64,000 nucleotides of DNA from a virus. Under the pieces are notes generated by a model. That model worked only from the letters and a program-made list of their open reading frames with translations. It was not told where the DNA came from and did no database searches. Numbering within the stretch: position 1 is the first letter of the stretch; the number at the start of each line of letters is the position of its first letter. The stretch covers positions 15,974 through 79,973 of IMG/VR virus record IMGVR_UViG_3300012202_000039. One strand, given 5' to 3'. Both the position numbers and the translations under genes were made by a program. Below, one piece after another: positions 11,068 through 63,880 of the stretch.

Positions 11068-11280
11068 ATGAACGAACCTAAGAAAATTTTACATATTACA
11101 GTTGGTTCTGATGATTGGTATTCTACTAATGTAGAATTGGAGCAAGTTTATAATTTATTTAAAAATGGTATATTAAATGCGCATAATTGTGTTACACAAA
11201 GAGGTATTGAAGTTAAGGCTATAGATAATATTGAAGATATAGATGAAATTGTCATCAGGCGTAAGATGAAATTACCTTAA
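11068..11280 (+). CDS. small protein homologous to the portal segment flanking the intein site
   Basis: ILHITVGSDDWYSTNVEL...VTQRGI vs portal IGWARVGDDEWEPTNNEL...VTRNGI; AAGGAG RBS. Confidence 0.7.
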   Translation: MNEPKKILHITVGSDDWYSTNVELEQVYNLFKNGILNAHNCVTQRGIEVKAIDNIEDIDEIVIRRKMKLP

Positions 11281-11312
11281 ATAATACACCAAAACTAGCC
11301 AATTCTATATGG

Positions 11313-11347
11313 AATAGCCCTAAGGTATCACCTTAGGGCTATTTTTT
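11313..11347 (+). terminator. intrinsic terminator
   Basis: AATAGCCCTAAGGT-atc-ACCTTAGGGCTATT followed by a T-run. Confidence 0.85.
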
Positions 11348-11367
11348 CGTTTAAAGTTATCTAATTT

Positions 11368-11394
11368 ATTAGATACTATTCAATAGTATCTAAT
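11368..11394. promoter_or_regulatory. 13-bp inverted repeat directly after TAATTT (5' UTR hairpin or operator)
   Basis: ATTAGATACTATT-c-AATAGTATCTAAT. Confidence 0.5.
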
Positions 11395-11415
11395 TCTCTC
11401 CTAAAGGAATATAAA

Positions 11416-12336
11416 ATGTACCTAGGCCACGTAGTCAAAGCTGAAGCTATCCCTCAGTGGTTTTCTGATATGAATAAAGAAGGTCAACAAGGCTACTTAA
11501 AAGATCACCCTAACTCCAAGATTGCTCATACAGTTAAGAATAATCCGAAAGCTTTGAAATCTGGTAGTAGGGGTGGAACTAATAAACCAGCTCCACACGA
11601 TCCTAAGAAGACTCTAGATATTATCAAAAAGAATCCTAGGGTTCAGAAGGCGCTTAAACCAAATTCTCCAGAACGACAGGAATTAGCTGGTAATTTAAAG
11701 AAATATAAAAAATTAATGGATAAGACCTATAAAGGATTAGATTTAGAAACTAGAGATGCACTTAGGGCTACTTCTGCTAAACTAAAAGCTGGTAAGAAAT
11801 TAGATGAAAAAGATATGCAAGGTATAGTAAATTTAACAAATGAATATACTAAGAAAAATAAATACGGATTAGGTAAGGCGGCAGCCAATGCAGTTGGTGC
11901 GGGTATTGGTGTTGCTGCTATGAACGTGGGCGGAGCGTTAACATTATATACTGGTGGTTTGGCAGGAACATTAGGAATTGGGGCAGCAGGTACAGCTGCC
12001 GCTATTGCCGCTCCTCTTGGTATTGGGCTGTTAGCAGTTGGCGCAGGTATATATGGGTATAATGCATTTAAGGGTATTAGAGGAAATTTTAGAAATTTAC
12101 GAGGCAAAACTAAAATTAACGACAGAGAAACCCAAGAATTACTTAAACACAAGAATGAATTCAGTACTATTACAGCTTACTTCTACACTAAAGCAGAAGA
12201 CAATACTCCCGATGATCCTATTCAAACTATTCTAGATCACATGTCTAAGGCGGTGCAGACTACTAATCTCTCCCCAGAGATGTGGGCACAGATGTTAACT
12301 CCTATTAAAAGTGAAGCTAAAGAAAAAGAGGAATAG
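11416..12336 (+). CDS. glycine-zipper family paralog A (putative internal head/ejection protein)
   Basis: WFSDMNKEGQQGYLKDHPNSK motif, NSPERQ motif, central Gly/Ala hydrophobic segment. Confidence 0.6.
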   Translation: MYLGHVVKAEAIPQWFSDMNKEGQQGYLKDHPNSKIAHTVKNNPKALKSGSRGGTNKPAPHDPKKTLDIIKKNPRVQKALKPNSPERQELAGNLKKYKKLMDKTYKGLDLETRDALRATSAKLKAGKKLDEKDMQGIVNLTNEYTKKNKYGLGKAAANAVGAGIGVAAMNVGGALTLYTGGLAGTLGIGAAGTAAAIAAPLGIGLLAVGAGIYGYNAFKGIRGNFRNLRGKTKINDRETQELLKHKNEFSTITAYFYTKAEDNTPDDPIQTILDHMSKAVQTTNLSPEMWAQMLTPIKSEAKEKEE

Positions 12337-12338
12337 AG

Positions 12339-13187
12339 ATGTATTTTCCCTCTGAAAAAGAATATTTTAAAATAATGTCTAGTGTTGGCAAGCTAGACAT
12401 TAATATAGATTTAAATGAAATATTATCTTCAGTAATACCTCTACATAATATCAGGTCTTATTACGAAGGTGCTAAAGCTTTACCTAAGTTCGACAAATCT
12501 AGTCTCAATAAGATATCACAGTCTGGAACTAAGTCTATAAATAAAGCTAAAACTACATTAAAATCTAACGGCGTTAATATAACTTTACTTCAAAGCTTAT
12601 GCTATAAGTATGGTAAAACCTATCGTGCCGGCTTTGATCCACAGAAATTCGCTCAACATATCAAAGAAATTCACACTAAAGTATCAGTTAAAGAGTTACC
12701 TAAAACTATACTATTATTACTAGTCATGCTTATAGCCTCGTTATTATTTCAAATGATATTATTCTCAATTATAGTAACCGGTTTATCCGCTGTCGGTATA
12801 TCTATAGCTGGAGGCTTTATATTTACAATAGTTAACATCATTTACTTAGTTCTAGGGGCGCCTATATTTGAAGAAACTGCCAAAAAATACGCAAATGAAC
12901 ATGGATTTGGAAATACTTATGTAACATTATTTACTTACGCCGAATTTGCTAAATACGTAATTACTTTTGCACATGCCGGCGTTGCCGTCCTAACTATTGT
13001 AGCTTATAGAATATTAGCAGCAGTTCTTCATTTTTATACACATTATTTACAAAAAGAAAATGTAGATTTTACGGGTAAGAAAAGTGATATTAAGAATGCA
13101 GGTTACAAAACAGGACTAGCAGTTCACGGTCTTTGGAATTTTTGTTTAGGCGGCTTACCCATGGTACTACAACTTATTCTTAAATAA
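12339..13187 (+). CDS. PrsW/CPBP-like intramembrane protease
   Basis: Multiple TM helices with EETAK, FTYAE, LHF and HGLWN motifs (EExxK, FxxxE, H, HxxxN). Confidence 0.7.
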   Translation: MYFPSEKEYFKIMSSVGKLDINIDLNEILSSVIPLHNIRSYYEGAKALPKFDKSSLNKISQSGTKSINKAKTTLKSNGVNITLLQSLCYKYGKTYRAGFDPQKFAQHIKEIHTKVSVKELPKTILLLLVMLIASLLFQMILFSIIVTGLSAVGISIAGGFIFTIVNIIYLVLGAPIFEETAKKYANEHGFGNTYVTLFTYAEFAKYVITFAHAGVAVLTIVAYRILAAVLHFYTHYLQKENVDFTGKKSDIKNAGYKTGLAVHGLWNFCLGGLPMVLQLILK

Positions 13188-13204
13188 TATAGGAAGCTAG
13201 AGAA

Positions 13205-13921
13205 ATGCCAGATAAAAAAGCTTTACAAAAAATTATCGATGATCCCCGAACTAAAAAGGCTATGCAATCTAACTCTCCTGAAAGACAAGCTTTAGCTAAG
13301 ACAATTCTCAAATATAGAAAACCCGTACAGAAAGTTTATAAATCTCTCCTACCAGGAGAGAAATTACTTATGGATGCTATAGCTAATAAGTTACGTAAGA
13401 ATGAGAAACTAGATAAGAATGATATTAAGGATTTATCTAGTTTCACTCAAAGATATACACAGGAGATCGATCCCGCTTCCTATAAAAACATGTATAAGTA
13501 TGAACGAAATAGTAGTTTACAAGGAGGATTATTAGCATTCGCTTTAATACCTTGGGCTGCTAAAGGTTTAGCAACTCAATTTAGTGGTCCTCTTGTTGGT
13601 CTCGCGGCAGGTGTTGTTTCTTTCCCACCGGCCGTAATTTTTGGTACAGCAGCTTTAGCTGGTTTATCTTTAGGTATGGAAATATATAGTGCATATAAAG
13701 GTATTAAGAATTGGATTATGCGTATAAGAGGTACGGATAAAATTGATACAGATCAACTAAAAAGTGTATTAAAACATCAACCTTTAAGTCATGTACATGC
13801 TTACTATATATCAGCGGATAACGATAATTCTGAAGCAACCGTCGATACAATTCTAAAAGCCACGGCTAAAGCAATTTTAACTGTTAAAATTAATCCAGAG
13901 GATCTTATGAAAGCTGCGTAA
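13205..13921 (+). CDS. glycine-zipper family paralog B
   Basis: DDPRTKKAMQSNSPERQALA; hydrophobic core; C-terminus similar to 11416 ORF. Confidence 0.6.
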   Translation: MPDKKALQKIIDDPRTKKAMQSNSPERQALAKTILKYRKPVQKVYKSLLPGEKLLMDAIANKLRKNEKLDKNDIKDLSSFTQRYTQEIDPASYKNMYKYERNSSLQGGLLAFALIPWAAKGLATQFSGPLVGLAAGVVSFPPAVIFGTAALAGLSLGMEIYSAYKGIKNWIMRIRGTDKIDTDQLKSVLKHQPLSHVHAYYISADNDNSEATVDTILKATAKAILTVKINPEDLMKAA

Positions 13922-13922
13922 T

Positions 13923-14747
13923 ATGTTAATATTTGCTACTGAAGATAAAAATTCTTGGTTCTACGATATGAATAAAGATCAACAGGATTTGTATATCACT
14001 AGGCATCCTAACTCCAAATTCGCTAAACAAGCGTCACCAGAACAAGGTGACGCTGATGCTTTTTCTACACATATTTTAGACGATAAAAAAGTACAGAAGG
14101 CTACACAGCCTCACTCCAAACAGCGTAAACAAGCCGCTAATAGTGTTACTAACCAAGGGAAATTAATCGAGGATTATTATAGTAAACTGCCTAAGACTGA
14201 TAAGCTTAAGTTAGATAGTTTCACTAAAAAATTAAGTAATAAAGAAAAGATATCTAAAGTAGATTTTAAACCAGTTAAAACATTCTTTAATAAATATCAA
14301 AAGTGGGTTAAAGGTTTAGATAGCGAAAAAATTGGTAAACTAGCTATTAAGGGTGCGGCCGTTTTTGCTATTGGCTCTTTCGTGGCAGCTAATATACCTC
14401 TAGCTGCTTTAGCTGGAGTGGTATTTTTATCTAGTAAGTTTAAAGGACCGGAACCTAAATTTTTGGGTCCAGTTAGGCAGCCTAAAAAAGAAGCAGAAAC
14501 TGAAGAATCTGCACCTAAGTATACTAAATCCAAGCCTAATATAATCGATACTGAATACGAAGAAGTTCCTAACGATGAGTATCTTGATCATAAACAACCT
14601 AAGCAATTGCAACATATCACTAGCTACTTTAATATAGCAGCAGTAGATAATACTCCACAAATTCTAGTTAAGCATTTAGCTGATGCACTTCAGTCACATA
14701 ACTTTACCAAAGAACAGTGGCAATATTTATTACGGCACCAATCATGA
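13923..14747 (+). CDS. glycine-zipper family paralog C
   Basis: WFYDMNKDQQDLYITRHPNSK; KKVQKATQPHSKQR; hydrophobic core; shared C-terminal DNTP..IL..HL motif. Confidence 0.6.
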   Translation: MLIFATEDKNSWFYDMNKDQQDLYITRHPNSKFAKQASPEQGDADAFSTHILDDKKVQKATQPHSKQRKQAANSVTNQGKLIEDYYSKLPKTDKLKLDSFTKKLSNKEKISKVDFKPVKTFFNKYQKWVKGLDSEKIGKLAIKGAAVFAIGSFVAANIPLAALAGVVFLSSKFKGPEPKFLGPVRQPKKEAETEESAPKYTKSKPNIIDTEYEEVPNDEYLDHKQPKQLQHITSYFNIAAVDNTPQILVKHLADALQSHNFTKEQWQYLLRHQS

Positions 14748-16369
14748 TTAATCTCGCTGCTTTCTACGAAGAACAAGCTAACGCTATTACTATCGATGAA
14801 AAGCTGATAGAAGAATTAATTCAATACATCTCAGATGTAGCTGATATATTAGAATTTGGTCCGTTAAAAGTAGAAGAATACAAGTTACTTCATGTTAGAA
14901 ATTTTACTAATCAAATATTAAAAAATCACCCTGTTCGTAATAAATATACCTACCTTTACCGTTTTCACTACGGTAAAGCTTTTGTACATATTAACCCCAC
15001 TACTAATATCAAAGCAGTTAAATTTATAGTAACTGCAACCGAACAACAGATAGAAAAGCCCAAACCACATAAAATTATTGCCTATACTAGTATAATTGAT
15101 AATCTACCTCTAAGATGGGATCCTAAAACTAAGAAGAATATTAAAACTCAGTTAAAAACTATCTACACCGAAGAAGAACTTCGGGTGATAATAAACCGAT
15201 TTAAACAAAAGAACCCCGGTTCAGATGATATGGATATCGCTAAATATTTGATGTTATTATTAAAACATCCGCCTAAGGGTCATGAATCTATCTTAGATGG
15301 TTTATCACTTAATGATGCTGAAAAACAAGTCATTGTTCAGAGTTTATCTCCTCACGAAATTAACGAAGTAATCGCAATTTGGCGAGAAAGTTTTCAAGGT
15401 AAAAATCATCCGATTCAATTCTTATTTAAAAATGCTATATTACGTAACAAACGTCGTGTACCCGTATCTAAACAAATATTAGATAATAAAACTAAACTTA
15501 TTAATTCTTTAGCTATTGATAAAGAAGATAAATATACTTTAGATAATAAGTTCTCTTATGTAGAAATTATCGATATAGTGGAAGCTTACAAAAAACGTAC
15601 TGGTAATGAACAACCTACTATCTTAAATCTTAGTGATCTTTTTCAAATAGTATTAGATGATTACGTAGCTATGAATATTCGCTTTATTCTAACTAAAGTG
15701 GGTACGGCGGATTGGCCGAAAATCCATGAAGAACTTGATCACCAATCTTATTTAAATCCAGGTAAAGATATTAATTTTACCGATGATGAGCGTCTACCGC
15801 CCCATCTACTCAAAGAAGAACCAGATTTTTATAAAGAAGAAAAAACTCTTATTGAAACCCCAAGAGATCTTTATAAAGGTTTTATTAATTTTATTACATC
15901 GGGTAGACTATATATTAATGCCCGAGCCTACGAGACCTGGTATTTATCCGAAGGCATAGCAAATTACTTCGCTTTCGAGGTATACAAAGCCCACCCGTTT
16001 AAGAATGAATTTCAGCAGCCGTTTACATTATTACCTTCTATCTTAACCTACGATAATCTAAAAGCTCCTATTTTAATATCTCCCTGGTATATAGCCGCTA
16101 TATTAGAGACCTTCCCTGAAGCAGCTATTAAGCGAGTAACGTCTAACACTAAATATCTCTTAGATATCAAGCGTGTCTCGCATCGTTTACAACGAGTTTT
16201 CGGAGAAAAGGGGGCTTATGCTGTAATTTTACATCATGAAGGTACTAATAAACATGTTCATCCTATTTCTGCGGTAGAAGCTAAACCGCAGTCCGCTAAT
16301 ATTACTATTCCAACTGGTGTACCTTCACGTCAAGTAATAGAATATTTAGATAATTATATGAGAGTATAA
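14744..16369 (+). CDS. hypothetical protein (possible virion head protein)
   Basis: Long ORF; start moved to the ATG overlapping the upstream TGA. Confidence 0.6.
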   Translation: MINLAAFYEEQANAITIDEKLIEELIQYISDVADILEFGPLKVEEYKLLHVRNFTNQILKNHPVRNKYTYLYRFHYGKAFVHINPTTNIKAVKFIVTATEQQIEKPKPHKIIAYTSIIDNLPLRWDPKTKKNIKTQLKTIYTEEELRVIINRFKQKNPGSDDMDIAKYLMLLLKHPPKGHESILDGLSLNDAEKQVIVQSLSPHEINEVIAIWRESFQGKNHPIQFLFKNAILRNKRRVPVSKQILDNKTKLINSLAIDKEDKYTLDNKFSYVEIIDIVEAYKKRTGNEQPTILNLSDLFQIVLDDYVAMNIRFILTKVGTADWPKIHEELDHQSYLNPGKDINFTDDERLPPHLLKEEPDFYKEEKTLIETPRDLYKGFINFITSGRLYINARAYETWYLSEGIANYFAFEVYKAHPFKNEFQQPFTLLPSILTYDNLKAPILISPWYIAAILETFPEAAIKRVTSNTKYLLDIKRVSHRLQRVFGEKGAYAVILHHEGTNKHVHPISAVEAKPQSANITIPTGVPSRQVIEYLDNYMRV

Positions 16370-16370
16370 A

Positions 16371-21482: not shown

Positions 21483-22580
21483 ATGAAAGCAACTGTTGCT
21501 CGTCGCCCTGCTGTCCCAGCTTTACATGCACGTTTTAATGGTAGTAATGAACGTATCGTCGGTCGAGACAATCATATTAATGCGGGTTCTAATAAGGAAC
21601 TTCTAACCCGCATTAAAGATCTGGCGGAAATGGTCACCGCTGGTTCTATTGATATGTCGCCCTATAATAAGAATAATCAAGTTACTGCGGCTGACGTTCA
21701 AACTCGTAATCAAAAATTATCAGCAGCATTTTATACCCAGAATAATTCCCGTCCGTGGGCAAATATGGGTGCCGCAGTTAGTGCCGATCTTTCGGAAGCC
21801 GCTGACCGTGAAGGCTTTATGCGTCGTCTCTTACTTAAGGTTGACGTAGCCAACGGAACTATTCCACGTATCCGCGTTAAGCAGAAGAATATTATCGCCT
21901 TAATCGCTTCTTCGGGGTTAGATAATCGGCCGGTATACTTACGTGATAAGTATATTACGCCTCCAGAATTTTATATTAAGCATAATATTCGCGTGGAAGA
22001 ACGTGAAATTGTGCAGGGGTCTGGGGATATTCTTGAAGATAAGTTCTTCGAGACCCAGGAAGGTATTATGGTGCAGGAAGATCGTAAGTTTATCTCTCTG
22101 CTAAATGATACTATTGGTATCGCTAATAGTAATCAGCTTTTAGCGGGTGGTTTATCTCCTGCTACCTTATCACAGATGCGCACACAGATTCTACAGTGGA
22201 ATCTGCCAGCATCTACTCTGTTAATTGCATCTGATGTGCTTAATGATATCGTTGGTCAGGGCGCAAATACTTTTGGCGGCTATTTTGATCCGGTGTCACA
22301 GTTTGAAATCGTTCAGACTGGTATGATTGGTACCTTAATGGGTATGCAGGTTATCACGGATTCGTACCGTGCCCCAACTCTTAAGGTTCTTAATGCCGGT
22401 GATATCTGGGTACTTTCTAATCCAGAAATGCTCGGTGCCTTTACGGATCGTGGTCCCGTGCAGTCACAGGAAGTTAATTCATACATGGAAGGTTCGCCCG
22501 CTCGTGGTTGGAACTTCTTTGAATTACTGAGTATGACTATAACTAACCAACGGTCAGCCGTCCACGGAAGTCGAGTTTAA
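21483..22580 (+). CDS. major capsid protein (HK97 fold, probable)
   Basis: 365 aa; REGFMRRLL, QEGIMVQEDR and TGMIGTLMGMQVITD segments; position after scaffold and decoration genes; biased codons. Confidence 0.8.
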   Translation: MKATVARRPAVPALHARFNGSNERIVGRDNHINAGSNKELLTRIKDLAEMVTAGSIDMSPYNKNNQVTAADVQTRNQKLSAAFYTQNNSRPWANMGAAVSADLSEAADREGFMRRLLLKVDVANGTIPRIRVKQKNIIALIASSGLDNRPVYLRDKYITPPEFYIKHNIRVEEREIVQGSGDILEDKFFETQEGIMVQEDRKFISLLNDTIGIANSNQLLAGGLSPATLSQMRTQILQWNLPASTLLIASDVLNDIVGQGANTFGGYFDPVSQFEIVQTGMIGTLMGMQVITDSYRAPTLKVLNAGDIWVLSNPEMLGAFTDRGPVQSQEVNSYMEGSPARGWNFFELLSMTITNQRSAVHGSRV

Positions 22581-22634: not shown

Positions 22635-22728
22635 CTAATTTAAGCGACATTATATTATATAACTCAAGATCTCTATTAAAACTGTAAATGAACAGAGATC
22701 TTGAGTTATAAATGTCGGCTTAAGTTAG
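22635..22728 (+). promoter_or_regulatory. long hairpin with CTGTAAAT in its loop, reaching the endonuclease RBS
   Basis: Perfect 17-bp arms 22658-22674 and 22694-22710, extended by 22635-22651 pairing with 22711-22728. Confidence 0.75.
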
Positions 22729-22739
22729 GAGAGTTTAAA

Positions 22740-24053
22740 TTGGAACGTTCAGAACAATATTATGATAGTTTAAAGAACGAACATATTAGAAAATTTAACG
22801 AAACACATGGTAAGGGTGAATATAAATTCTTATCTAAGATTTATCGTAAACAATTAGACACATATAAATATAAGCATAAATGTGGGCTAATTTTTGAATC
22901 TACGGCTATGAGCCTACAACATGGCAGATCTAAGTGTGTTTGCCAACATAAAATAAATATTCCGAATACACCTGAAGGGTTTAAAATTAGATCTGCTGCT
23001 TCAAATAAAGGCCAAGCTGGACGTTATAAAACCTATCGTAAGAAAATGCAAGTAATATTAAACGAAAAGTACGGTGAAAATGAATATAAACTTTTAACTA
23101 AGAAATATGAGGGTGGAACTAAAACTTATACCTTTAAGCATTCTTGTGGATTAAAATTTAAATCTACTGCTGCTTGTTTATCTAGAGGTTTATCTAAGTG
23201 TCCTTGTTTACACATTGTAAGAAGTAAAGGACTTACTCTAGAAGAACATAATATAGATTTACAAGCTAAAAAAGGTAACGATTATACTTGTACTAAATAT
23301 TTTAGTATGCATGATCCAAATAATGAATATATACACAATATATGTGATAATGCTTTTAAATCCCGTGCAGCAGCTGTTCTAGGTGATTTAAAAGGTTGTA
23401 TCCATTGCTCGGGTAAAGACGGTAGTTTAATTAATAGAGTGACTAAACGTCAATTTATGAAAGAATTAAATAGTGTTGAAAATGGAAGAGATTACCGAAT
23501 TATCGGAGATTTTGAGGGTAAGTCTAAAATAACAGAGTTTAAACATAATTGTGGTAATAAATTTAAAGCTAAGCCTTATGATGTATTAATGAATCGTATT
23601 AGATGTTATACATGTTATCCTATATTAAGTAATAAAGAAGTAGAAGTAAATAATAAAATTTTTACTTTACGTGGATATGAACCTTTCGCTTTAGAACGAT
23701 TATTAAAGCTTTACAGTTATAAAGATATTCTTGATTCTAAGTCAAAAGAGTTTCCTCATTTTAAATACACAATAAATAGGATACGCCGAAATTATATTCC
23801 AGATCTTTATGTTAAATCTAATAATCTAGTAATTGAGGTTAAGAGTTTATCAACTATGGGTTTAGAAAATTCATATTTTAATGATAAAGATGGTATCGAT
23901 TTATTTGATAGAAATAGCGCCAAAGCAAAAGCAGTACTAAGAAAGGGTTACAAATTTAGGATGTACTTATTCGATAGTAAAGGTGTACGGATAACACTAC
24001 CAAAATACTGGTATACGTTATCTAAAACAGATGTGTTAGATTATATTTCTTAA
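22740..24053 (+). CDS. free-standing homing-type endonuclease: repeated HxCG/CxxC zinc-ribbon modules plus C-terminal PD-(D/E)xK domain
   Basis: Four H-x-C-(G/D)-x-x-F...C-x1-2-C repeats; RGYEPFAL...YIPDLY...IEVKS; TTG start at 22740 has AGGAG 8 nt upstream (ORF track start is 22701). Confidence 0.75.
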   Translation: MERSEQYYDSLKNEHIRKFNETHGKGEYKFLSKIYRKQLDTYKYKHKCGLIFESTAMSLQHGRSKCVCQHKINIPNTPEGFKIRSAASNKGQAGRYKTYRKKMQVILNEKYGENEYKLLTKKYEGGTKTYTFKHSCGLKFKSTAACLSRGLSKCPCLHIVRSKGLTLEEHNIDLQAKKGNDYTCTKYFSMHDPNNEYIHNICDNAFKSRAAAVLGDLKGCIHCSGKDGSLINRVTKRQFMKELNSVENGRDYRIIGDFEGKSKITEFKHNCGNKFKAKPYDVLMNRIRCYTCYPILSNKEVEVNNKIFTLRGYEPFALERLLKLYSYKDILDSKSKEFPHFKYTINRIRRNYIPDLYVKSNNLVIEVKSLSTMGLENSYFNDKDGIDLFDRNSAKAKAVLRKGYKFRMYLFDSKGVRITLPKYWYTLSKTDVLDYIS

Positions 24054-26393: not shown

Positions 26394-29006
26394 ATGCCAC
26401 AATTTTATCTTTCTCCTGGCGTCTACAATACTGAAATAAATTTATCCCAGAGAGTGCAGGCAGCAGCATCTTCTACGGGTGCCGCAGTATTTGAATCGCA
26501 TAAAGGTGCTTTAGGCCAACAGTTCTATACTAATCGTGATGATTTTTTACGTGATTACGGTAACCCAGATCCTACTGTCAGTTTCGGTCACGATTGTGTA
26601 TTAGATTTCTTTACCCAATCTAATTCTATGTGGGTTGATCGAGTAATTAATGGATCTACTTGGGCAGGATCCTTTGTACATAATAATACAGGTGATAGTA
26701 CAGCAACCTCCACTTATTATGATAAGTTTGATATTGGTAATAATAATCAATTTGATGGTGGCACTGAACAAGATATCACCGTCTTAACTTTTAGTGGAGC
26801 TATAATAACTGCTAATAGCATTACAGGTACTGTTACTGATGGTATTGTGACTTCTCCAGTTACGATTGGCCCTACGGTTTTTGCTACGAGTAATAATGCC
26901 ACTTTAACCGCTTTTGCTACGGCTATTCAAAATGCTATTAATTCAATTAATGGTACTTACGCTGCTTTAGGTGGCGTAGCTGAAGTTATAGACACAGGAA
27001 CAGCTAATAATCGTAGTATTAGGGTTATTGCACCACAAGGAGTTATTTTAACTTTTACTGGTCTTGTGATTACTTTAGGTGCTAGCCAAGCTACTATTTC
27101 TGATCAAACCGGGGTTAAATTATTTGACGTTTTCGCGATCGGTCCTGGTACTTATGCTAATGGCGCAGTTGGGTTTAAAACTAGTGGTATAAATCAAGGT
27201 ATCCCCTCACGATATAATATATCATTTAGCGCCGCTTTAATTACGAGTAACGTATTTAGTGGAACAGTTAATGGCTTTAATATTGGATTTAATCAGGTAC
27301 TGACATTAACTTTCAGTACAACTTTAGTAACTGGTAACGTATTTAATGCTACAGTTAACGGTGTAGCTTTAACTCCGATTAATTTTACGACGGATAGCGC
27401 TACGACTATGGCAGCTATTGCCACAGCAATTCAAGCGGCTACAGTTACATTAAATCCAGGATCTACCGCTACAGTTAGCGGTAATGTAATTACTGTGACT
27501 TGTGGTCGTCCCTTATATAACGTCAATACTATTACTGGTTCTGTTGTTACTGGTGGTGCTGGACAGGCTACTGTTACCTTAGCTACCGCATCTCCTGTGC
27601 AAACTAACGTAATATTTTCTGCTAATAATAACCAAATGTTAAGTGATATTGCTACAGCTATTCAATATGCAATGGACATTAATATTAGTACAGGAGGTAG
27701 TACTGCTATAGTTAGTATACCAGGTTCATTGACTATGAACCGACAGATTAACGTAGTTACTCCTAAAGCTACTTTTGATCTGACTTTTGCTAATCTATTA
27801 GTTACTAGTGGCTCTAGTCAAGCTAGTGTGGTCGTTAGTCAGACATTAGTTCGTACTCCACCTAACGGCACTTTTCAATTTCAAGTATTTGCTAACGGTA
27901 ATGTTGTCACTCCTGTTGAATCATACGTTGTATCTATGGCAAATCAGCAGGATGGTTTTGGTAATCAACAGAATATTGCTCAGGTAATTAATCTAAGTGC
28001 TAGGGCTTCTAAATATGTACGAATTTGGCAGCCAAGTACTTCTTTAAGTTTACCTATAGTTACGGATACAGGTGGATCTATTATTTTTCTTGCAAATGGT
28101 GGTGATGGTTCAGCCGCTACTTCGTCAAATATCAATGCAGGTTGGAATACCTTTATTAACCGTGATCAAAATGAAATTCGTATTCTATTAAATTGTGGTT
28201 ACACTAACGTCGCTGTTCAGCAGAATATTGATGCTTTAGCTAATAGTCGATTTGACTGTTTTGGTATTCTTGACACACCCTCAAACTTACAGGCGACGAC
28301 TAGTGCAACTAACTATCGTCTTAATACACTAAACATCAATTCATCTTATTCTGGTATGTATAGTCCAGATTCTCAAATTGTAGATGAATTTACGGACCAA
28401 ATTAGATTTATTCCTAATTCTGGTAACGTAGGTGCTACTTTCGTCTTTACGGATACATCTCGGGCAACGTGGTTTTCTCCCGCTGGTTTAAATCGTGGTC
28501 AAATTCGTAACATTCAAGCGTTACGGGTTGATTATGAACAAGGTGATCGTGATCAACTGAGTCCTAATCAAGTTAATGCTATTATTAAGAAACGTGGTAA
28601 AGGTTTCTTTGTTTTTGATGATCAAACTCTATCTGCGGTAAAGAGTGCATTATCTAACATTAACGTTCGCCGTCTATTAATCTTTATCGAAGTTGCTATT
28701 ACCGATGCATTAGACTTCGATCTTTTTGAACCAGATGACGATTTTCTTGGATTTACTATTGTACAAATGTTGAATGATTTTCTCTTACCTATTCAACGAG
28801 GTAGAGGATTATTTGACTTTCTAGTAGTATCTGACGATACGAATAATTCAGCTTCAGATATAGATGCTGGACAGCGTAACGTTGATATTTATCTGAAGCC
28901 TACGTTAGCCGCACGAGTTATTAAAGTACGTACAGGTATAACAAAGACAGGGGCTAACTTCAGTGAATTAGTTGCTGCGGGTGGATTAGCAGCTGTCGCT
29001 GGATAA
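26394..29006 (+). CDS. tail sheath protein
   Basis: SPGVY..E N-terminus; WFSPAGLNRG, INVRRLL and VDIYLKP C-terminal motifs. Confidence 0.95.
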   Translation: MPQFYLSPGVYNTEINLSQRVQAAASSTGAAVFESHKGALGQQFYTNRDDFLRDYGNPDPTVSFGHDCVLDFFTQSNSMWVDRVINGSTWAGSFVHNNTGDSTATSTYYDKFDIGNNNQFDGGTEQDITVLTFSGAIITANSITGTVTDGIVTSPVTIGPTVFATSNNATLTAFATAIQNAINSINGTYAALGGVAEVIDTGTANNRSIRVIAPQGVILTFTGLVITLGASQATISDQTGVKLFDVFAIGPGTYANGAVGFKTSGINQGIPSRYNISFSAALITSNVFSGTVNGFNIGFNQVLTLTFSTTLVTGNVFNATVNGVALTPINFTTDSATTMAAIATAIQAATVTLNPGSTATVSGNVITVTCGRPLYNVNTITGSVVTGGAGQATVTLATASPVQTNVIFSANNNQMLSDIATAIQYAMDINISTGGSTAIVSIPGSLTMNRQINVVTPKATFDLTFANLLVTSGSSQASVVVSQTLVRTPPNGTFQFQVFANGNVVTPVESYVVSMANQQDGFGNQQNIAQVINLSARASKYVRIWQPSTSLSLPIVTDTGGSIIFLANGGDGSAATSSNINAGWNTFINRDQNEIRILLNCGYTNVAVQQNIDALANSRFDCFGILDTPSNLQATTSATNYRLNTLNINSSYSGMYSPDSQIVDEFTDQIRFIPNSGNVGATFVFTDTSRATWFSPAGLNRGQIRNIQALRVDYEQGDRDQLSPNQVNAIIKKRGKGFFVFDDQTLSAVKSALSNINVRRLLIFIEVAITDALDFDLFEPDDDFLGFTIVQMLNDFLLPIQRGRGLFDFLVVSDDTNNSASDIDAGQRNVDIYLKPTLAARVIKVRTGITKTGANFSELVAAGGLAAVAG

Positions 29007-29127: not shown

Positions 29128-29661
29128 ATGCCACGTATTTCACTGTCTGATGTGCAATCTTTACATGATCCTATCAGTTCTGAAGCTTATGTACTACAAT
29201 TAGGCACAATTCCTAATTCTATCGGTAATGATCGAGAATTAGCAATTAAATGCTTAAATGCTAATATGCCGGGATTTTCTAATGAAGCTTTTGAAGTAAA
29301 TTTACACTCGCATGTGCGTAACGTACGTGGTCGTAAGATGTACCCACGAACACTGGCCGTGACATATATTGAAGATTCTACATTACATACAACTAACTTA
29401 TTACGTTCATGGAGTGAATTTATTGTAGGCTCGCAATCTGGTACTTCTGCGGGCGATATTGCTCAGTATTCAGTTACCGCCAATCTTCAGGTATTTAACC
29501 ACCAGGGTACGATAATTCAGGATATCAATTTCTTTCATTTCTTTATTCAGGAAGTTCCTGATGTGCAGCTTACGGGTGAATCTTCGACTTTAATGCAAAT
29601 TCCAGTTACATTTAAATATGATCATTTCTTAACTAATATTGGACCAGTTACCACAAGGTAA
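29128..29661 (+). CDS. tail tube protein (T4 gp19-like)
   Basis: 177 aa directly after sheath; LRSW, VTFKYD pattern. Confidence 0.8.
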   Translation: MPRISLSDVQSLHDPISSEAYVLQLGTIPNSIGNDRELAIKCLNANMPGFSNEAFEVNLHSHVRNVRGRKMYPRTLAVTYIEDSTLHTTNLLRSWSEFIVGSQSGTSAGDIAQYSVTANLQVFNHQGTIIQDINFFHFFIQEVPDVQLTGESSTLMQIPVTFKYDHFLTNIGPVTTR

Positions 29662-29665
29662 TTAT

Positions 29666-30559
29666 ATGAAAAGGGTATCACTTAACGACGTTCAATCTAT
29701 ACCTGATTTTGCACAAAAAGATAATTTTAATTTCGTATTAGGTAATACTCCTGGTGGAAGTACAGATAGAAAATTACACATAAAGTGTAATTCTATTACA
29801 TTTCCACCATTAGAGAATGAACCTATTATAGTAAATCTTTGGGGGCATAAAGTAAAACATCGTGGTAAATTTGTGCCTCCACAAGATATCACGGTTACTT
29901 ATTATGAAGATAATAAATATAGAACTTTAAAAGCTTTACGTTCTTGGCATAACGCTGTTGTTAATCCGGTTACTGGATCAACAGCTTATGGCAAAGTTGG
30001 CTATACTACTATAAGTGAATTAAGTTTATATGATCAAAAAGGTCATATAGGTTATGGGATAGGTTTCGTAAATATGTTTCCACAGAGGATAGAAGGTTTT
30101 GAATTAAGTGGTGACTCTTCTGGTCCTATATTAATATCAGTGAATTTTGGTTACGATTATATGGTTGAAGTTGGAAGTTTTGGTGGTATAGGTGGATTAT
30201 TAACGGGTAGTAGTGCCCTAGGTGGTGTAGTTAATACAGTTATATCTAATTTAGGTTTAAGTGCTAATGTTCTAGGTATTGATGTAGGTTTAAATCCTAA
30301 TGGATTAACATTAAATGGTGGTGGTATTGGTTTAACTGCCGGGTTAGATGGCGTAGGTATAGATACCGGTGGAGTAATTAGTAAAGCCTTTGATATTTTT
30401 GCAGGTAATGGAATATTTGGAGGTAATAATATAGGACAATCTAATGGTGCTGGTGGTATTCCTGGTGCTGGTACATTAGGAGATGATTCAGCAACTAATC
30501 CACAAGTATCGAATAATGCTCCGCAAAGTGTAATTACTTCTAATCTTGGATTAGGCTAA
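29666..30559 (+). CDS. tail tube-like protein with Gly-rich C-terminal extension
   Basis: N-terminal 170 aa paralogous to 29128 ORF (RVSLNDVQS, LRSW, VNFGYD). Confidence 0.7.
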   Translation: MKRVSLNDVQSIPDFAQKDNFNFVLGNTPGGSTDRKLHIKCNSITFPPLENEPIIVNLWGHKVKHRGKFVPPQDITVTYYEDNKYRTLKALRSWHNAVVNPVTGSTAYGKVGYTTISELSLYDQKGHIGYGIGFVNMFPQRIEGFELSGDSSGPILISVNFGYDYMVEVGSFGGIGGLLTGSSALGGVVNTVISNLGLSANVLGIDVGLNPNGLTLNGGGIGLTAGLDGVGIDTGGVISKAFDIFAGNGIFGGNNIGQSNGAGGIPGAGTLGDDSATNPQVSNNAPQSVITSNLGLG

Positions 30560-31056
30560 TGATACCCTCCCTATCACGTAATCGCGCCCAGCAATTAGCA
30601 CCACCTGCGATTGATTGGCGTTGGGTAGTTAATTTACCTAGTATACCCGGGGCTCCTAATTCAAAAAATATAGTTGTTGAAGCAATAGAATTTCCTCATT
30701 TTAGTATATCTGCTATTCCTAGGTTTAATGGAGCTTCTAATCGTCATTATCCTGGTATATCAGAAATATCCGCATTCGCTATGACATTTTATGAAGATAA
30801 TATGTTTAGTGCAACTAAATATTTATATGCTTGGAAAAGCTTAGTAGTTGATACTAATGGAATTTATGGTGTTCCAGCTGATTATAAAAAAGATCTTCGC
30901 TTAAGAATGTATGATATTCAAGACCATATAATGTTTAATGGTACATTACAAGAATGCTGGCCAACTAATATTTCTTCTTATAGTCTTAATTATAATGATT
31001 CTAATCGTTTAACTATATCAGCACAATTTGCTACAGATGGTTCTACGGTAGTTTAA
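30559..31056 (+). CDS. tail tube-like/tube initiator protein
   Basis: MTFYED..YLYAWK, CWPTNISSYSL tube-fold pattern. Confidence 0.7.
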   Translation: MIPSLSRNRAQQLAPPAIDWRWVVNLPSIPGAPNSKNIVVEAIEFPHFSISAIPRFNGASNRHYPGISEISAFAMTFYEDNMFSATKYLYAWKSLVVDTNGIYGVPADYKKDLRLRMYDIQDHIMFNGTLQECWPTNISSYSLNYNDSNRLTISAQFATDGSTVV

Positions 31057-59246: not shown

Positions 59247-59256
59247 ATTTTTCCTC

Positions 59257-61572
59257 CTAAAGTATTCGAGTTATTTTAGACTTTCCTCCCTGTTTAACTA
59301 CATGATATTCACTATTCGCGCAAGATATTGGGAATTCTTCTGAAGTTCTTGGGGTTATTATTACTAAATGTGGAATAATAGCTTTAAGCCGTGGAAGAAA
59401 TTCATCTGCTATTAATTTTAGAGTTTCTTCACCACAATTAGAATCTATTTCATCTAAAATTAATACATTAGTTCTCATATTATCTGGAATAATAGATAAC
59501 ATACTTAATAGACAAAGTAATCTAAAACATTGAGTTTCGGATCCAGATAATAATTGAACATCTGAACTAAGTCCTGAACGTAAAGCTATAATATCAAATT
59601 TATTCTCAGTTACGTTAAGTTTAAACTGGAAGTTTTCAGCAAATACCAAAGAAGAGTATTTGTTTAAACAATCTTCAAAAAGCTTAGCGAAACCTTTAAG
59701 TTGCTCTATACGTATGCCTTTAGGACCGTAAGCTAACACTAAATCTTTGTATAACTCAAAATCCTTTAAATCTATATTATATTGTGTAATATCCTTTTCA
59801 AAATCTTTAGATATATTTATATCATGTTTAAGCATACTTAAATCTATATTAAGTTTTTCAATATTCTCTTGCGTAGAGTTTATTTTTTGCATTAAAGGCA
59901 TTAATTTAATCTCTATATTAGATCTCATAATTTCTAGTTTATTAACATTTTTATTACCAAGTTTATTTAGAAATTTTTCATCAGATTTATATTCATCAAG
60001 TAATATTTTATATTTATCTAATGCTTTAGTATATTTAACTATTAAGTTATTACTATTATGTGGAAGTTTAGGTAATTCATTAATATCTAAAGTGGATATT
60101 TGTGTTTTTATTCTATATTTAATTTTAGCAAAATGTAACTTCTTAGTTAAACTATTTAATAGTTTATTCAGATTAAAAATATACTTAGTTGGATCTTTAT
60201 ATAAAGGTATAGTTAATGTAGCTAGCTTTTCTTTTAGTTCTACATATTCTATTTGTTTCTCTATTCTTATTTTATGTGAGTTATATTTTATTATGATTCG
60301 TTTAGCTTTATATAGATGAATTTTTGTTTCTTGTGGATTTAATTGTTGTTTACAAGTAGGACAGATTTTTTTACTAGATATATTACTAAATATTTTAATA
60401 TTATTAGTATAAGTAGTTAACTTAAATTTTATATTATCTAGTATATCTTTCAATACTTTAACTGGTTTAGCAGAGGGATATGCATTAGTTTCTAACTCTT
60501 GTTTAATTTCATTATATTGCTGAGCTTTCTCTTCTTCTTGATTATAGGTGGTAATTAATTCATTTAGTTTAATTATTTTACTTTCATAATACTCTATTGA
60601 TTTAATTTGCTTTAACTTAGTTAATGCTTTTTTATATTTTAATCGTTTGTCATGTAGGGGTTTTAATTCATTATATCTTATAATGAGATCTTTTAGTTTA
60701 TTAGTTTTATCTTCTATATTAGAAATATAGATATTTAATTTAATTATCTTCTTGCTTATAGTAGAAAGATCTAAATCTTTATGTTTGATATTATCATAAT
60801 ACATGAAATATTTATTTAAAGTATCTTGACGTTGTTTAAATTTAGTTTGTAAAACAAATAACTTATTATAAAGCTTACGTTTTAGTTTTAACTCACAATT
60901 TTTGTTATTTTGTAAAGATTCTAACTTATCTAACTTAGTTATATTATATTCTTTAAATAGATGTCCATCATGGTCTACTTTTTTATCCAAAATATATTCT
61001 AAAGTTACTTTTTTCTTTTTTAGTTCACCCAAATATTTATTTAACTTATTACGAATACTATCATATATTTCTAAACTAAATAGAGATTCAAAGAAATCAT
61101 GTCGTTGTGCAGATGTACCTACTTGTAATATATTATCACGTAAAGCATTTATATAAGTATAAGTATAAAAATGTTGTTCTTTTTGGTGAAAGAGTTTTTG
61201 AATTTCATTTTTTACTTCACTTCTAATTTTTATATTATGTTTTTTAGGATCAAAACTTTCTTTACTATCATGTTGATATACAACATAATTAACTCCGCTA
61301 TTTTTACTTTTCTGTTCAATATGACTTATTTTGCTATTTTCTTGAATACCAATACGTATATATGAATTACCATTATGAAGTTTTTTAGCCGTATTTTTCT
61401 TACGATCTAAAGGTGGAGAAAAATAGATAATATTACCTAATAAAGAGTATGCCAGACTTTTTCCACTACGATTACCTCCTCTAATAACTCGTAATTCGTT
61501 ATCTGGAAAAGTCAAATTCAAATTATCATAGGTAATAATATTTTTGGCTTCTAGATATAATAACTTAATCAT
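59257..61572 (-). CDS. SbcC/Rad50-like (T4 gp46-like) recombination ATPase
   Basis: Walker A GGNRSGKS, coiled coils, CPTC zinc hook, LSGSE signature, Walker B ILDE. Confidence 0.9.
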   Translation of the reverse strand: MIKLLYLEAKNIITYDNLNLTFPDNELRVIRGGNRSGKSLAYSLLGNIIYFSPPLDRKKNTAKKLHNGNSYIRIGIQENSKISHIEQKSKNSGVNYVVYQHDSKESFDPKKHNIKIRSEVKNEIQKLFHQKEQHFYTYTYINALRDNILQVGTSAQRHDFFESLFSLEIYDSIRNKLNKYLGELKKKKVTLEYILDKKVDHDGHLFKEYNITKLDKLESLQNNKNCELKLKRKLYNKLFVLQTKFKQRQDTLNKYFMYYDNIKHKDLDLSTISKKIIKLNIYISNIEDKTNKLKDLIIRYNELKPLHDKRLKYKKALTKLKQIKSIEYYESKIIKLNELITTYNQEEEKAQQYNEIKQELETNAYPSAKPVKVLKDILDNIKFKLTTYTNNIKIFSNISSKKICPTCKQQLNPQETKIHLYKAKRIIIKYNSHKIRIEKQIEYVELKEKLATLTIPLYKDPTKYIFNLNKLLNSLTKKLHFAKIKYRIKTQISTLDINELPKLPHNSNNLIVKYTKALDKYKILLDEYKSDEKFLNKLGNKNVNKLEIMRSNIEIKLMPLMQKINSTQENIEKLNIDLSMLKHDINISKDFEKDITQYNIDLKDFELYKDLVLAYGPKGIRIEQLKGFAKLFEDCLNKYSSLVFAENFQFKLNVTENKFDIIALRSGLSSDVQLLSGSETQCFRLLCLLSMLSIIPDNMRTNVLILDEIDSNCGEETLKLIADEFLPRLKAIIPHLVIITPRTSEEFPISCANSEYHVVKQGGKSKITRIL

Positions 61573-61575
61573 GAT

Positions 61576-62220
61576 TTATACAAACTTTGTAGTTTTAATA
61601 TTATCTAGGGTTAAACGCTCTTTACCTAATTCTAAAGCATCTAATTCTTTAAATACATCAATTATATCGAAAAAGAAATCACTCTGTATTCGTAAACGAT
61701 TAGGTATAACTAAATCAGTACTAGTTGAAGAAATAGATTTATTTTCAGTTAATTCTTCAATTCTTGATAAACCTATAGTAACAACACAAACTCCCATTTC
61801 ACGTATAATACGAATAGGATAATCAAAATCTGGATTATGTGTCATAACCCATATTACATCTAGCTGTGGATTATGATTATGTATACGTACCATAATATCT
61901 GTAAGCATTTCTAAATCTATACGTCTACTTTTAATATTATCTATAGCATCTCGTGTTCTAACTAGATAGCCTTGATAGGCTAAAGTCTGTAAAAAACTAG
62001 TAAAATTATCACTATTACGATCATTAGAATTTATAGCAGAGTAGTAATATACTCCACTAACTCTGTATTGTTGGCGTAGAGCTAAGAGAAATTCTTTATA
62101 CAAGAATTTAACTCGTAATCTTTGAGATGCCTTATAGGTTAGATCACTATCAATAAATATTGCAATATTAGTCCCTTTGTATATATCTAGAAATTTAGTG
62201 TAATTAGTTAATTTCGACAT
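61576..62220 (-). CDS. NYN/LabA (PIN-like) domain protein with degenerate active site
   Basis: IAIFIDS, YYYSA, IDLEM..D, THNPDF..PI...REMG..V..IG, SDFF.DI. Confidence 0.7.
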   Translation of the reverse strand: MSKLTNYTKFLDIYKGTNIAIFIDSDLTYKASQRLRVKFLYKEFLLALRQQYRVSGVYYYSAINSNDRNSDNFTSFLQTLAYQGYLVRTRDAIDNIKSRRIDLEMLTDIMVRIHNHNPQLDVIWVMTHNPDFDYPIRIIREMGVCVVTIGLSRIEELTENKSISSTSTDLVIPNRLRIQSDFFFDIIDVFKELDALELGKERLTLDNIKTTKFV

Positions 62221-62228
62221 AATCCATC

Positions 62229-63260
62229 CTATAAATGACTTAGAGCACAAATGATACTATCTTCATCTATTGGCTTGGTTAATAGTTCTTTTTTAACAAA
62301 GATTAGTTTATTATGTATTAATACAGAGAATTTAATATTCGGTTTAGCTATTTGACTTTGAAATTTCTTATATAGTGGAATAAAGCGACGATTAGCGGCA
62401 CCACTAAGTTCTTCCACAATAAATCTATTCAATAACATTGTGCGAAATAAAATAGATACTAATTGATCTTTATTAATTAAAGCTAGTTTGATTAAACTAG
62501 CTATATTATTTTTATATACGTTAACTAGAAATTCTACGGCTAAATCATCTAATGGTGATTCTGTTTTTAACAAGATAGATTTAAAAGTGCTATCATCTAT
62601 TTTGAATTTAGGATTACTCGAATAACGGTTAACAAAGGCTGAAAATTGGTTGATAGAATCTCGTATACTTCCATTAGAGTTAATTGCTATATATTTACAT
62701 GCTAACATCAAGGATTTAGGGGGTATTTTTAGCTGTTCTTTACCTGCTATATATAGCAGGTTATCTATAATAATGTTAGGTGGAATATGCTCTAGAGCTA
62801 TAAGTTCGCAGCGATTTTTGATCGTAGGTAATAGTGCCTCGGGCTCATTAGTACAGAGAATCCAGATAATATGCGGTGGGGGTTCTTCTAATGCCTTAAG
62901 AAAAGCATTAGAAGATAACTTCTGAATACCTTGTACCTCGTCGAGGATAATAACCTTGTATTTATGCTTGGGCTTAAATCGTATAATTTTAACCAGATCA
63001 CGAATATCTTCAATACTTCTCTTATCACTAACATTTATCTCTATTGTATCTTCATCAGAGTTGTTTAGTTTATTAGCAATAATTCTAGCTAGGGTAGTCT
63101 TGCCCGTACCAGTATTACCTGTGATTAGTATACGTGGTGGTATATTAGTATTCTTAAGAAAACCCCGTATTTGTGCTACAGCATTCGGTTGCCCCAAAAA
63201 TCTCTTCAATATTTTAGGGCGATACTTTAGATCGTAAGGAGTATTAATCATTTTTAGCAT
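62229..63260 (-). CDS. DNA polymerase III gamma/tau-like clamp loader ATPase
   Basis: KYRP....LGQ, GNTGTGKTTLAR, VIILDEV, NAFLKALEEPP, TIKNRC, GSIRD. Confidence 0.9.
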   Translation of the reverse strand: MLKMINTPYDLKYRPKILKRFLGQPNAVAQIRGFLKNTNIPPRILITGNTGTGKTTLARIIANKLNNSDEDTIEINVSDKRSIEDIRDLVKIIRFKPKHKYKVIILDEVQGIQKLSSNAFLKALEEPPPHIIWILCTNEPEALLPTIKNRCELIALEHIPPNIIIDNLLYIAGKEQLKIPPKSLMLACKYIAINSNGSIRDSINQFSAFVNRYSSNPKFKIDDSTFKSILLKTESPLDDLAVEFLVNVYKNNIASLIKLALINKDQLVSILFRTMLLNRFIVEELSGAANRRFIPLYKKFQSQIAKPNIKFSVLIHNKLIFVKKELLTKPIDEDSIICALSHL

Positions 63261-63453
63261 TGATTAATTTGTACCCAATTCTCACACGTTGTACTATATT
63301 TCTAGCAATTAACCTATCCAAAGATTTTTCAACTTGGTCTAAATCATACCCCCGAAACTCTTCTGCTTCTGTTATTGAACAGATAACTCCATAATTATTA
63401 TTACATCTAGATAGATATTTTATTATATCTTGCTGTATTTTACCAAGTTTCAT
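63244..63453 (-). CDS. small winged-helix-like hypothetical protein
   Basis: 69 aa; V..SL.RL..R.IV.R...GY.L. Confidence 0.45.
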   Translation of the reverse strand: MKLGKIQQDIIKYLSRCNNNYGVICSITEAEEFRGYDLDQVEKSLDRLIARNIVQRVRIGYKLINAKND

Positions 63454-63457
63454 TAGT

Positions 63458-63880
63458 TTATTCTCCCTCTAGATTTACGCTCAATGGAATGCTAATATAC
63501 TTAACTGGAGCTATAGGTTTAAGCATCAAATCAAAACTATAATCATCTACGAAGTTAACTTTAACTTCACGAAATGTAGAGCTATATTTTTCTGTTAAAA
63601 TGACAGATATATCTTCTTCAGTAAAATCGAATGTTTTTAATGTATCAATAAAACACTCTACACTTAGATTATGAAATAATTTATTAATAGTTTCTGCATC
63701 TCTACTTTTTAAAAGAGCTTTTGTATTATTATTTAATGAACTAGCATAACTTACAGTAGATTTAAAAGTAGTGCTATCTTCAAAGTTATTGTAACTCATA
63801 ATACCGGCCACAGCTGATTCCATAGAATTTAATAGTCGGCTAACATTAATGTTATCTTCAACTTTTTTAATTTCAGTCAT
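63458..63880 (-). CDS. stand-alone tail sheath C-terminal-domain-like protein
   Basis: NINVSRLLNSMESAVAGIMSYNNFE vs sheath NINVRRLLIFIEVAITDALDFDLFE; FDLMLKP vs VDIYLKP; AGGAG RBS. Confidence 0.65.
   Translation of the reverse strand: MTEIKKVEDNINVSRLLNSMESAVAGIMSYNNFEDSTTFKSTVSYASSLNNNTKALLKSRDAETINKLFHNLSVECFIDTLKTFDFTEEDISVILTEKYSSTFREVKVNFVDDYSFDLMLKPIAPVKYISIPLSVNLEGE

What the first reader, a model, noticed from the sequence alone, without database searches (positions are those of the whole stretch)
11068..63880. Possible self-mimic strategy: two independent genes encoding interaction-domain fragments of virion proteins
Seen: two unlinked small ORFs each match a putative protein-protein interaction domain of a virion protein from this same window (portal clip region; sheath C-domain). 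Each has a strong RBS and sits among non-structural genes. Two such cases in 64 kb suggest selection rather than debris. Inference: an undescribed anti-defence or phage-competition system built from structural-protein fragments, since capsid, portal and tail proteins are established triggers of bacterial immunity.
Basis: inference. Interest (0 to 1): 0.8.

Follow-up and report, generated by a model that had tools for sequence, protein, structure and literature searches.

The report
Free-standing portal clip-domain mini-protein
One of the two small genes is a real, separately encoded copy of the exposed "clip" tip of the phage head portal. It belongs to a large, undescribed family of such mini-proteins in giant phages. 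The supposed tail-sheath fragment is no better than a chance match, and no function has been shown for either gene.

Summary

**ORF A (11068-11280, 70 aa): real homologue of the portal clip.**
- A profile of five foreign portals finds it at E 1.2e-5 among all 668 open frames of the window. The best shuffled proteome scored 3.8 bits against its 19.
- The match runs across the portal's intein junction, so it corresponds to the spliced portal.
- Its AlphaFold model (pLDDT 82) is strand-helix-strand-strand, and its best PDB matches are portal clip regions.
- It is not a recent copy of its own portal. It belongs to a large family of free clip-domain proteins: 715 cluster representatives, mostly 65-300 aa, some tandem, some with Tat signals, some fused to other domains.
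- PHROGs lists one subtype (phrog_11049) as unknown function. RefSeq labels one member "portal protein". I found no paper on it.

**ORF B (63458-63880) versus the sheath C-domain: not established.**
- An unrelated clamp loader scores as high on the same helix.

**Interpretation.**
- The anti-defence decoy reading has no support here.
- ORF A closes an Hfq-like / tubulin operon inside the head module, so a role at the clip's docking surface (neck or terminase) is my best guess, at about one in three.

This scan has noted similar portal-clip mini-genes on other DNA.

The parts
11068..11280 (+). ORF A: a free-standing portal clip-domain protein of 70 aa. The predicted fold is strand 6-12, helix 21-37, strands 47-53 and 61-65.
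   Evidence: Portal HMM E 1.2e-5. Small-family HMM E 3.6e-14. AF2 pLDDT 81.7. Best structural matches are portals.
11054..11059 (+). Ribosome-binding site AAGGAG, overlapping the tubulin stop codon and lying 8 nt before the ORF A ATG.
   Evidence: Read from the sequence.
11311..11345 (+). Intrinsic terminator: a 16-pair stem followed by a T run, closing the operon just after ORF A.
   Evidence: sequence.
9091..9900 (+). Hfq-like protein with a long tail, the first gene of the same operon.
   Evidence: Pfam Hfq 3.1e-11.
9927..11054 (+). Tubulin/TubZ-like GTPase, the gene immediately upstream of ORF A.
   Evidence: Pfam Tubulin 2.8e-10.
1047..4394 (+). Portal gene (1115 aa) interrupted by a LAGLIDADG intein. 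N-extein 1047-1931, intein 1932-3407 (C296...HN787), C-extein 3408-4394.
   Evidence: phrog_16240 4.5e-116. Pfam Intein_splicing and LAGLIDADG_3. Sequence.
1848..1931 (+). First half of the portal clip segment (aa 268-295), homologous to ORF A residues 5-32.
   Evidence: Alignment A2.
3408..3491 (+). Second half of the portal clip segment (aa 788-815, just after the intein), homologous to ORF A residues 33-55.
   Evidence: Alignment A2.
63458..63880 (-). ORF B: an orphan 140-aa protein in the replication module. Its likeness to the sheath C-domain is not significant.
   Evidence: No relatives found.
28629..28745 (+). Sheath helix (aa 746-784 of the 870-aa sheath, gene 26394-29006) that ORF B residues 1-39 resemble.

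Best explanation
ORF A is a free-standing copy of the portal clip domain. The clip is the small strand-helix-strand-strand tip of the portal that protrudes from the capsid; in T4 and HK97 it docks the packaging motor first and the neck or adaptor afterwards.

ORF A is an old paralogue that belongs to a large family of free clip proteins in giant phages. It is not a recent fragment of this phage's own portal. It is translated from a strong ribosome-binding site as the last gene of an Hfq-like / tubulin operon inside the head module.

Shown: homology, fold, family membership, operon anatomy, and selection in relatives.

Inferred, at about 0.3-0.35: the protein works by offering a soluble clip surface to a natural clip partner, either a neck/adaptor protein or the large terminase. 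In that way it would chaperone or time head completion in this phage's own assembly.

ORF B is most likely an unrelated orphan of the replication module.
For: Homology:
- Foreign-portal HMM E 1.2e-5, spanning the intein junction.
- hhalign 81%.
- Small-family HMM without ORF A, E 3.6e-14.
- Null maximum 3.8 bits.

Fold:
- The AF2 model has pLDDT 81.7.
- The seven best Foldseek rows (ranks 1-7) are chains of the Haloferax virus HFTV1 portal and rank 8 is a phage head-to-tail connector chain, though E is only 0.7-1.5.
- In the VIA-align search, 8 of the best 12 rows are portal or head-to-tail connector chains, each aligned over about 52-57 residues in mid-chain, Z 3.7-5.4.
- T4's clip is described as 'three beta-strands and helix alpha6' and as the gp17 and gp13 docking site (PMC4493910; PMC10359639).

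Family:
- 715 representatives, of which 119 of the best 149 are 300 aa or shorter.
- Members hit the portal family phrog_16240 at positions 290-345.
- BcepSauron gp210 hits true portals at E 4e-11.
- There is one small clip gene per complete genome in BcepSauron and Lu11.
- dN/dS is 0.26 for L076 against L065.

Context:
- Terminator after ORF A. Prohead protease upstream. Major capsid protein downstream.
- In L021 the free clip gene lies between terL and the portal.
- T4 uses host Hfq on the neck that docks on the clip (PMC12929587).
Against: - No binding partner is shown.
- Hfq is absent from four other phages that carry free clip genes, so the Hfq link is local to this window.
- Contexts in BcepSauron, Lu11 and BCSR5 are mostly hypothetical genes.
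- Seven relatives carry Tat export signals. Others are fused to HTH-antitoxin or WYL/SH3-like domains. This fits a general binding or oligomerising module as well as it fits an assembly factor.
- ORF A has lost the conserved D-P-x-G loop of the family.
- ORF A has no close relative, so selection on it cannot be measured directly.
Confidence: 0.55

Rival explanations
1. Immune decoy. The free clip domain soaks up or blinds a host sensor that recognises portal protein, for example Avs4-type STAND NTPases.
For: The domain is a real, selected copy of an exposed portal surface. That portal proteins trigger Avs4 is from my own knowledge and was not checked here.
Against: There is no defence or anti-defence context. 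The gene closes a head-module operon rather than sitting in an early region. Tat-exported relatives cannot act on cytoplasmic sensors. A 55-residue piece is a small part of what a fold-recognising sensor would see.
Confidence: 0.1
2. Weapon against co-infecting phages. The free clip poisons foreign portal rings, or titrates their terminase, while the phage's own diverged portal escapes.
For: [quoted passage not shown] The window's own portal departs from the family motif (IGWARVG instead of the conserved xxH at that position), whereas ORF A keeps it.
Against: There is no evidence of exclusion. The family is old and spread over very different phages, with only one copy per genome. Fusion partners do not suggest toxicity.
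Confidence: 0.15
3. General small scaffold. The clip fold was recruited as a self-associating or adaptor module that carries other domains, with no remaining link to the portal's partners.
For: About 30 of the best 150 hits have tandem modules. There are fusions on either side with a GGYFVRY-type domain, a HigA-like HTH, a WYL_2/SH3-like domain, and Tat leaders.
Against: 43 of the best hits are bare modules of 100 aa or less, like ORF A, with nothing to carry. No oligomer test was made.
Confidence: 0.15
4. ORF B is a strongly diverged free-standing sheath C-terminal domain, so a second virion-fragment gene does exist.
For: With a low alignment threshold, hhalign lays ORF B colinearly over the whole domain: the INV-x-RL helix, FE, V-x-C-x-x-D, and LKP....[KN][YF]I. 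The score of 26.2 compares with a shuffle maximum of 25.0 in that mode and 20.5 in the default local mode. Language-model neighbours include two clusters of small PF17482 proteins, but at scores of only 0.76-0.77.
Against: The HMM gives E 0.059, below an obvious false positive. The clamp loader scores 28.5 on the same helix. Pfam PF17482 and the sheath PHROGs do not see it. No relatives exist to build a profile.
Confidence: 0.3
5. ORF A is decaying debris of a partial portal duplication or of intein homing.
For: It covers exactly the portal stretch around the intein site. It has lost the D-P-x-G loop.
Against: The reading frame is intact, with a ribosome-binding site and a terminator. All six family-invariant residues are kept. 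It is closer to other free clip proteins than to its own portal. Family members occur in phages whose portals have no intein (portals of 652 and 663 aa).
Confidence: 0.05

Closest known systems
Clip domain of tailed-phage portal proteins (T4 gp20 residues 279-358, PDB 3JA7/6UZC; portal family phrog_16240)
   Same: The sequence is homologous to positions about 290-345 of phrog_16240 portals. It has the same strand-helix-strand-strand make-up, and its best structural matches are portal clip regions.
   Different: It has no stem, wing or crown, so it cannot form a portal. It has an extra C-terminal strand region that is conserved among the small proteins. It is encoded about 7 kb downstream of the portal gene.
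phrog_11049 (unknown function; Pseudomonas phage Lu11 gp133 type) and Burkholderia phage BcepSauron gp210 (labelled 'portal protein' in RefSeq)
   Same: It carries the same free clip module, with the motif ILH-x-x-x-G-x-D/E-x-W-x-P-T-x-x-E-L and a later V-x-T-R.
   Different: ORF A is a bare single module of 70 aa. Lu11 gp133 has an extra N-terminal domain, and gp210 has two tandem modules plus a helical tail. ORF A itself does not reach phrog_11049 in hmmscan.
Packaging-interference proteins of phage satellites (for example SaPI Ppi and PICI Rpp, which bind the small terminase)
   Same: They are small proteins that would act by binding a part of the packaging machine. This is an analogy from my own knowledge and was not tested here.
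   Different: They are not derived from portal, they are encoded by satellites rather than by the phage itself, and their target is TerS.
Host Hfq as accessory gate of the T4 gp13/gp14 neck (PMC12929587)
   Same: An Hfq-family ring and the portal clip surface meet in one assembly step. Here an Hfq-like gene and a free clip gene share an operon.
   Different: In T4 the Hfq is the host's, and no free clip protein is involved. Four other phages with free clip genes lack Hfq.

Membership tests
Portal protein (phrog_16240 / T4 gp20-like) | Full clip-stem-wing-crown architecture of about 500-700 aa, able to form the dodecameric ring | tested here: not met
   ORF A is 70 aa and matches only HMM positions 300-355 of a 652-position portal profile.
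Portal protein (phrog_16240 / T4 gp20-like) | Sequence homology to the clip segment | tested here: met
   E 1.2e-5 with a profile that holds no sequence of this window. hhalign 81%.
Free-standing clip-domain proteins (phrog_11049-like, no Pfam entry) | Match to a profile of the small proteins built without the query | tested here: met
   E 3.6e-14, 47 bits, over 60 of 70 residues.
Free-standing clip-domain proteins (phrog_11049-like, no Pfam entry) | Invariant residues H, G, W, T, F, T of the module | tested here: met
   H9, G13, W17, T20, F31 and T43 are all present in ORF A.
Free-standing clip-domain proteins (phrog_11049-like, no Pfam entry) | Clip-like fold | tested here: met
   The model has pLDDT 81.7. 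Portal or connector chains fill 8 of the best 12 VIA-align rows, Z 3.7-5.4, and the best 8 Foldseek rows at weak E.
Phage_sheath_1C (PF17482), for ORF B | Significant match to the family profile | tested here: inconclusive
   There is no Pfam hit. The custom HMM gives E 0.059. hhalign gives 25%, equalled by an unrelated clamp loader.
Phage_sheath_1C (PF17482), for ORF B | Sheath inner-domain fold | not tested
Anti-defence decoy | Relief of a defined defence system | not testable with these tools
   This needs plating of knockouts on defended hosts.

The most novel reading that the evidence does not exclude
Free clip domains are a widespread class of phage-made molecular mimics of the portal's docking tip. 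They would titrate clip partners (terminase, neck proteins, or host sensors of portal). Different phages would use them for self-regulation, for competition, or, in the Tat-exported forms, for a task outside the cytoplasm.
Probability: 0.25. Interest if true: 0.85.

Novelty: new variant of a known kind. Interest (0 to 1): 0.6.

Why it matters
The portal clip is the one surface that the packaging motor and then the neck must both use. A large, conserved family of soluble copies of just that surface has not been named in Pfam, and I found no paper on it in the held library.

If these proteins bind terminase or neck proteins, they would be a new layer of control, or of conflict, over head completion. 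They would also be ready-made probes for that interface.

There are practical points as well. RefSeq labels at least one member 'portal protein', which can mislead genome annotation. Cultured phages such as BcepSauron, Lu11 and BCSR5 carry members, so the question can be tested at the bench.

Tried and rejected
- Complex prediction of ORF A with the phage's own large terminase (L084:2515-4635) returned no verdict. It is not used as evidence either way.
- No close relatives of this phage were found through its tubulin, clamp loader or TerL in IMG/VR, nor of ORF B in metagenome contigs.
- ORF A and ORF B each found only themselves in the word-indexed protein search.
- The sheath C-domain found no small relatives there.
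- Alignments A2 and A3 were too diverse for the search for related loci.
- The portal profile found no solved relative by sequence.
- The full portal model was poor in the clip (pLDDT under 50 at 277-287 and 312-340), so the clip was mapped from helix order and from the ORF A model.
- Pfam found nothing for the small proteins apart from a sub-threshold WYL_2 hit in the C-terminal half of P0047.
- The CTGTAAAT motif occurs 3 times against 4.5 expected, so no promoter claim is made.
- The first BLAST alignment of ORF A ran into the intein. That part was spurious; the correct partner is the C-extein.
Full report
**The window.** It is a low-GC (about 33%) piece of a giant phage. It comes from an IMG/VR record of 79,973 bases that CheckV estimates to be 35% complete.

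Genes identified:
- Portal at 1047-4394 (phrog_16240, E 4.5e-116).
- Prohead protease at 7220-7984.
- Major capsid protein at 21483-22580.
- T4-like sheath at 26394-29006, and tail tube at 29128-29661.
- A replication block on the minus strand at the right end, with a clamp-loader ATPase and a NYN nuclease.

The portal is 1115 aa because it carries a LAGLIDADG intein (Pfam Intein_splicing and LAGLIDADG_3). From the sequence, the intein is residues C296 to N787, followed by S788.

**Checking the observation.** The two ORFs are real open frames with AGGAG 8 nt before the start codon. By pairwise comparison both likenesses are weak, at 25 and 27.7 bits. When each of the 24 small ORFs is shuffled and compared with all large proteins, the three best scores average 60, 56 and 53. 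The observed scores are 60, 60 and 53. So pairwise scores alone show nothing.

**ORF A is a portal clip homologue.**
- A tblastn of ORF A against 50,697 phage records gave weak hits only. They fell on small proteins of Burkholderia phages BcepSauron and BcepSaruman, labelled 'portal protein' in RefSeq, and on Pseudomonas phage Lu11 gp133.
- BcepSauron gp210 (154 aa) in turn hits true portals of phiRSL1 and Motura at E 4e-11 and 6e-11.
- A profile of five foreign portals, with no sequence of this window, was searched against all 668 stop-to-stop frames of the window. Apart from the portal it found only ORF A, at E 1.2e-5 and 19.1 bits, over profile positions 300-355.
- Thirty shuffled proteomes never exceeded 3.8 bits. 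hhalign gives 81%.
- The match crosses the intein site. ORF A residues 5-32 align with the end of the N-extein and residues 33-55 with the start of the C-extein. The part of the first BLAST alignment that ran into the intein was spurious.

**Which part of the portal it copies.**
- In the portal model, the matched stretch lies between a long helix (257-282) and the helix pair 340-354 / 368-406. That is, it lies between the two stem helices, where the clip sits. It is poorly modelled in a monomer.
- The whole portal model matches T4 gp20 best.
- The ORF A model, built on 41 sequences with pLDDT 81.7, is strand 6-12, helix 21-37, strands 47-53 and 61-65.
- T4's clip (residues 279-358) is described as three strands and one helix. 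It is exposed outside the capsid and is the docking site of gp17 and then gp13 (PMC4493910). The same role is stated for HK97 (PMC10359639).
- In Foldseek, ranks 1-7 for the ORF A model are chains of one archaeal virus portal (HFTV1) and rank 8 is a phage connector chain, at weak E of 0.7-1.5.
- VIA-align against 48,161 chains puts an HK97-family portal (Z 5.4) and a chain of the phage Mu neck structure (Z 5.2) first. Portal or head-to-tail connector chains fill 8 of the best 12 rows, each aligned over about 52-57 residues in mid-chain. These Z values are modest, as expected for 57 residues; the weight lies in the enrichment.

**A large family.**
- A degenerate DNA pattern for the motif found further small ORFs in IMG/VR.
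- A profile of eight small modules was searched against 1.84 billion representatives. It found 715 proteins at E of 0.001 or better and 144 at 1e-10 or better.
- Of the best 149, 43 are 100 aa or shorter (all start with M), 76 are 101-300 aa, and only 21 are of portal size.
- About 30 have two tandem modules. Seven have twin-arginine leaders.
- Some are fused to a HigA-like HTH, to a WYL_2/SH3-like domain, or to a 'GGYFVRY-x-NG' domain that can sit on either side of the module.
- Members hit the portal PHROG at positions 290-345, and also phrog_11049, which has unknown function. Pfam has no family for them.
- A profile of 125 modules built without ORF A scores it at E 3.6e-14.
- On a tree of 54 columns, 30 of 37 portal clips fall on one side of a split with 4 small proteins (support 0.80). 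ORF A's neighbours are other bare modules, and its own portal's neighbours are portals. The resolution is low, but it agrees with the scores of 47 against 19 bits.
- BcepSauron and Lu11 each hold one portal and one small clip gene.
- dN/dS between two Lu11-type members is 0.26.

**Context.**
- ORF A starts 13 nt after a tubulin-like gene, which follows an Hfq-like gene. A 16-pair terminator closes the unit.
- The unit lies between the prohead protease and the capsid gene.
- In contig L021 the free clip gene lies between terL and an intein-bearing portal.
- A 2026 paper shows that T4 borrows host Hfq as a second gate on the gp13/gp14 neck. It also shows that Hfq prevents gp14 from mis-docking between portal clip domains (PMC12929587). 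This makes an assembly role attractive here.
- However, four other phages with free clip genes have no Hfq.

**ORF B.**
- A profile of seven foreign sheath C-domains gives E 0.059 for a 36-residue helix, below the clamp loader at 0.044.
- hhalign gives 26.2 (25%). No shuffle of 150 reached this, but the clamp loader scores 28.5 on the same helix.
- A loose alignment is colinear over the whole domain. A language-model search lists two clusters of small PF17482 proteins at 0.76-0.77, below the tool's 0.9 line for a lead.
- Pfam sees only the true sheath.
- I put the chance of real homology at about 0.3.

**Verdict.** There is one real case, not two. Its function is open. This scan noted portal-clip mini-genes on other DNA before. 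Those notes were leads only.

Noticed in passing
window 9091-11345: An Hfq-like gene with a tail of about 200 aa, a tubulin/TubZ-like GTPase and the free clip gene form one terminator-closed unit inside the head module. T4 is now known to use host Hfq on its neck (PMC12929587).
   Followed up: partly
window 1932-3407; L021:6594-10055; L043 and L061: Portals of this family carry inteins at three different sites. [quoted passage not shown]
   Followed up: partly
P0006, P0010, P0049, P0070, P0080, P0084, P0091: Free clip proteins with clear twin-arginine (Tat) signal peptides, which suggests that some family members are exported.
   Followed up: no
L002:2168-2758 (Lu11 gp133), L076, L065, L019:6932-7384: A second unnamed domain (GGYFVRY-x-NG-x-ESF) is fused before the clip module in Lu11-type proteins and after it in the L019 type.
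   Followed up: no
L001:2375-2839 (BcepSauron gp210, NC_049851): RefSeq calls this 154-aa two-module protein 'portal protein', although the true portal (652-aa open frame) lies about 31 kb away. This is an annotation trap.
   Followed up: yes
window 4892-5716 / 8101-8850; 11416-14747; 29128-31056: There are paralogue sets within the window. The 274- and 249-aa pair is 40% identical. Three consecutive genes at 11416-14747 are related. Tube-like paralogues lie at 29128-31056.
   Followed up: no
window 22701-24053: An HNH endonuclease gene lies directly after the major capsid gene, so the region carries a second mobile element besides the portal intein.
   Followed up: no
L021:6211-6492: A second, weak clip-like frame (E 9.3e-4) lies immediately after the 72-aa free clip gene of that contig.
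   Followed up: no
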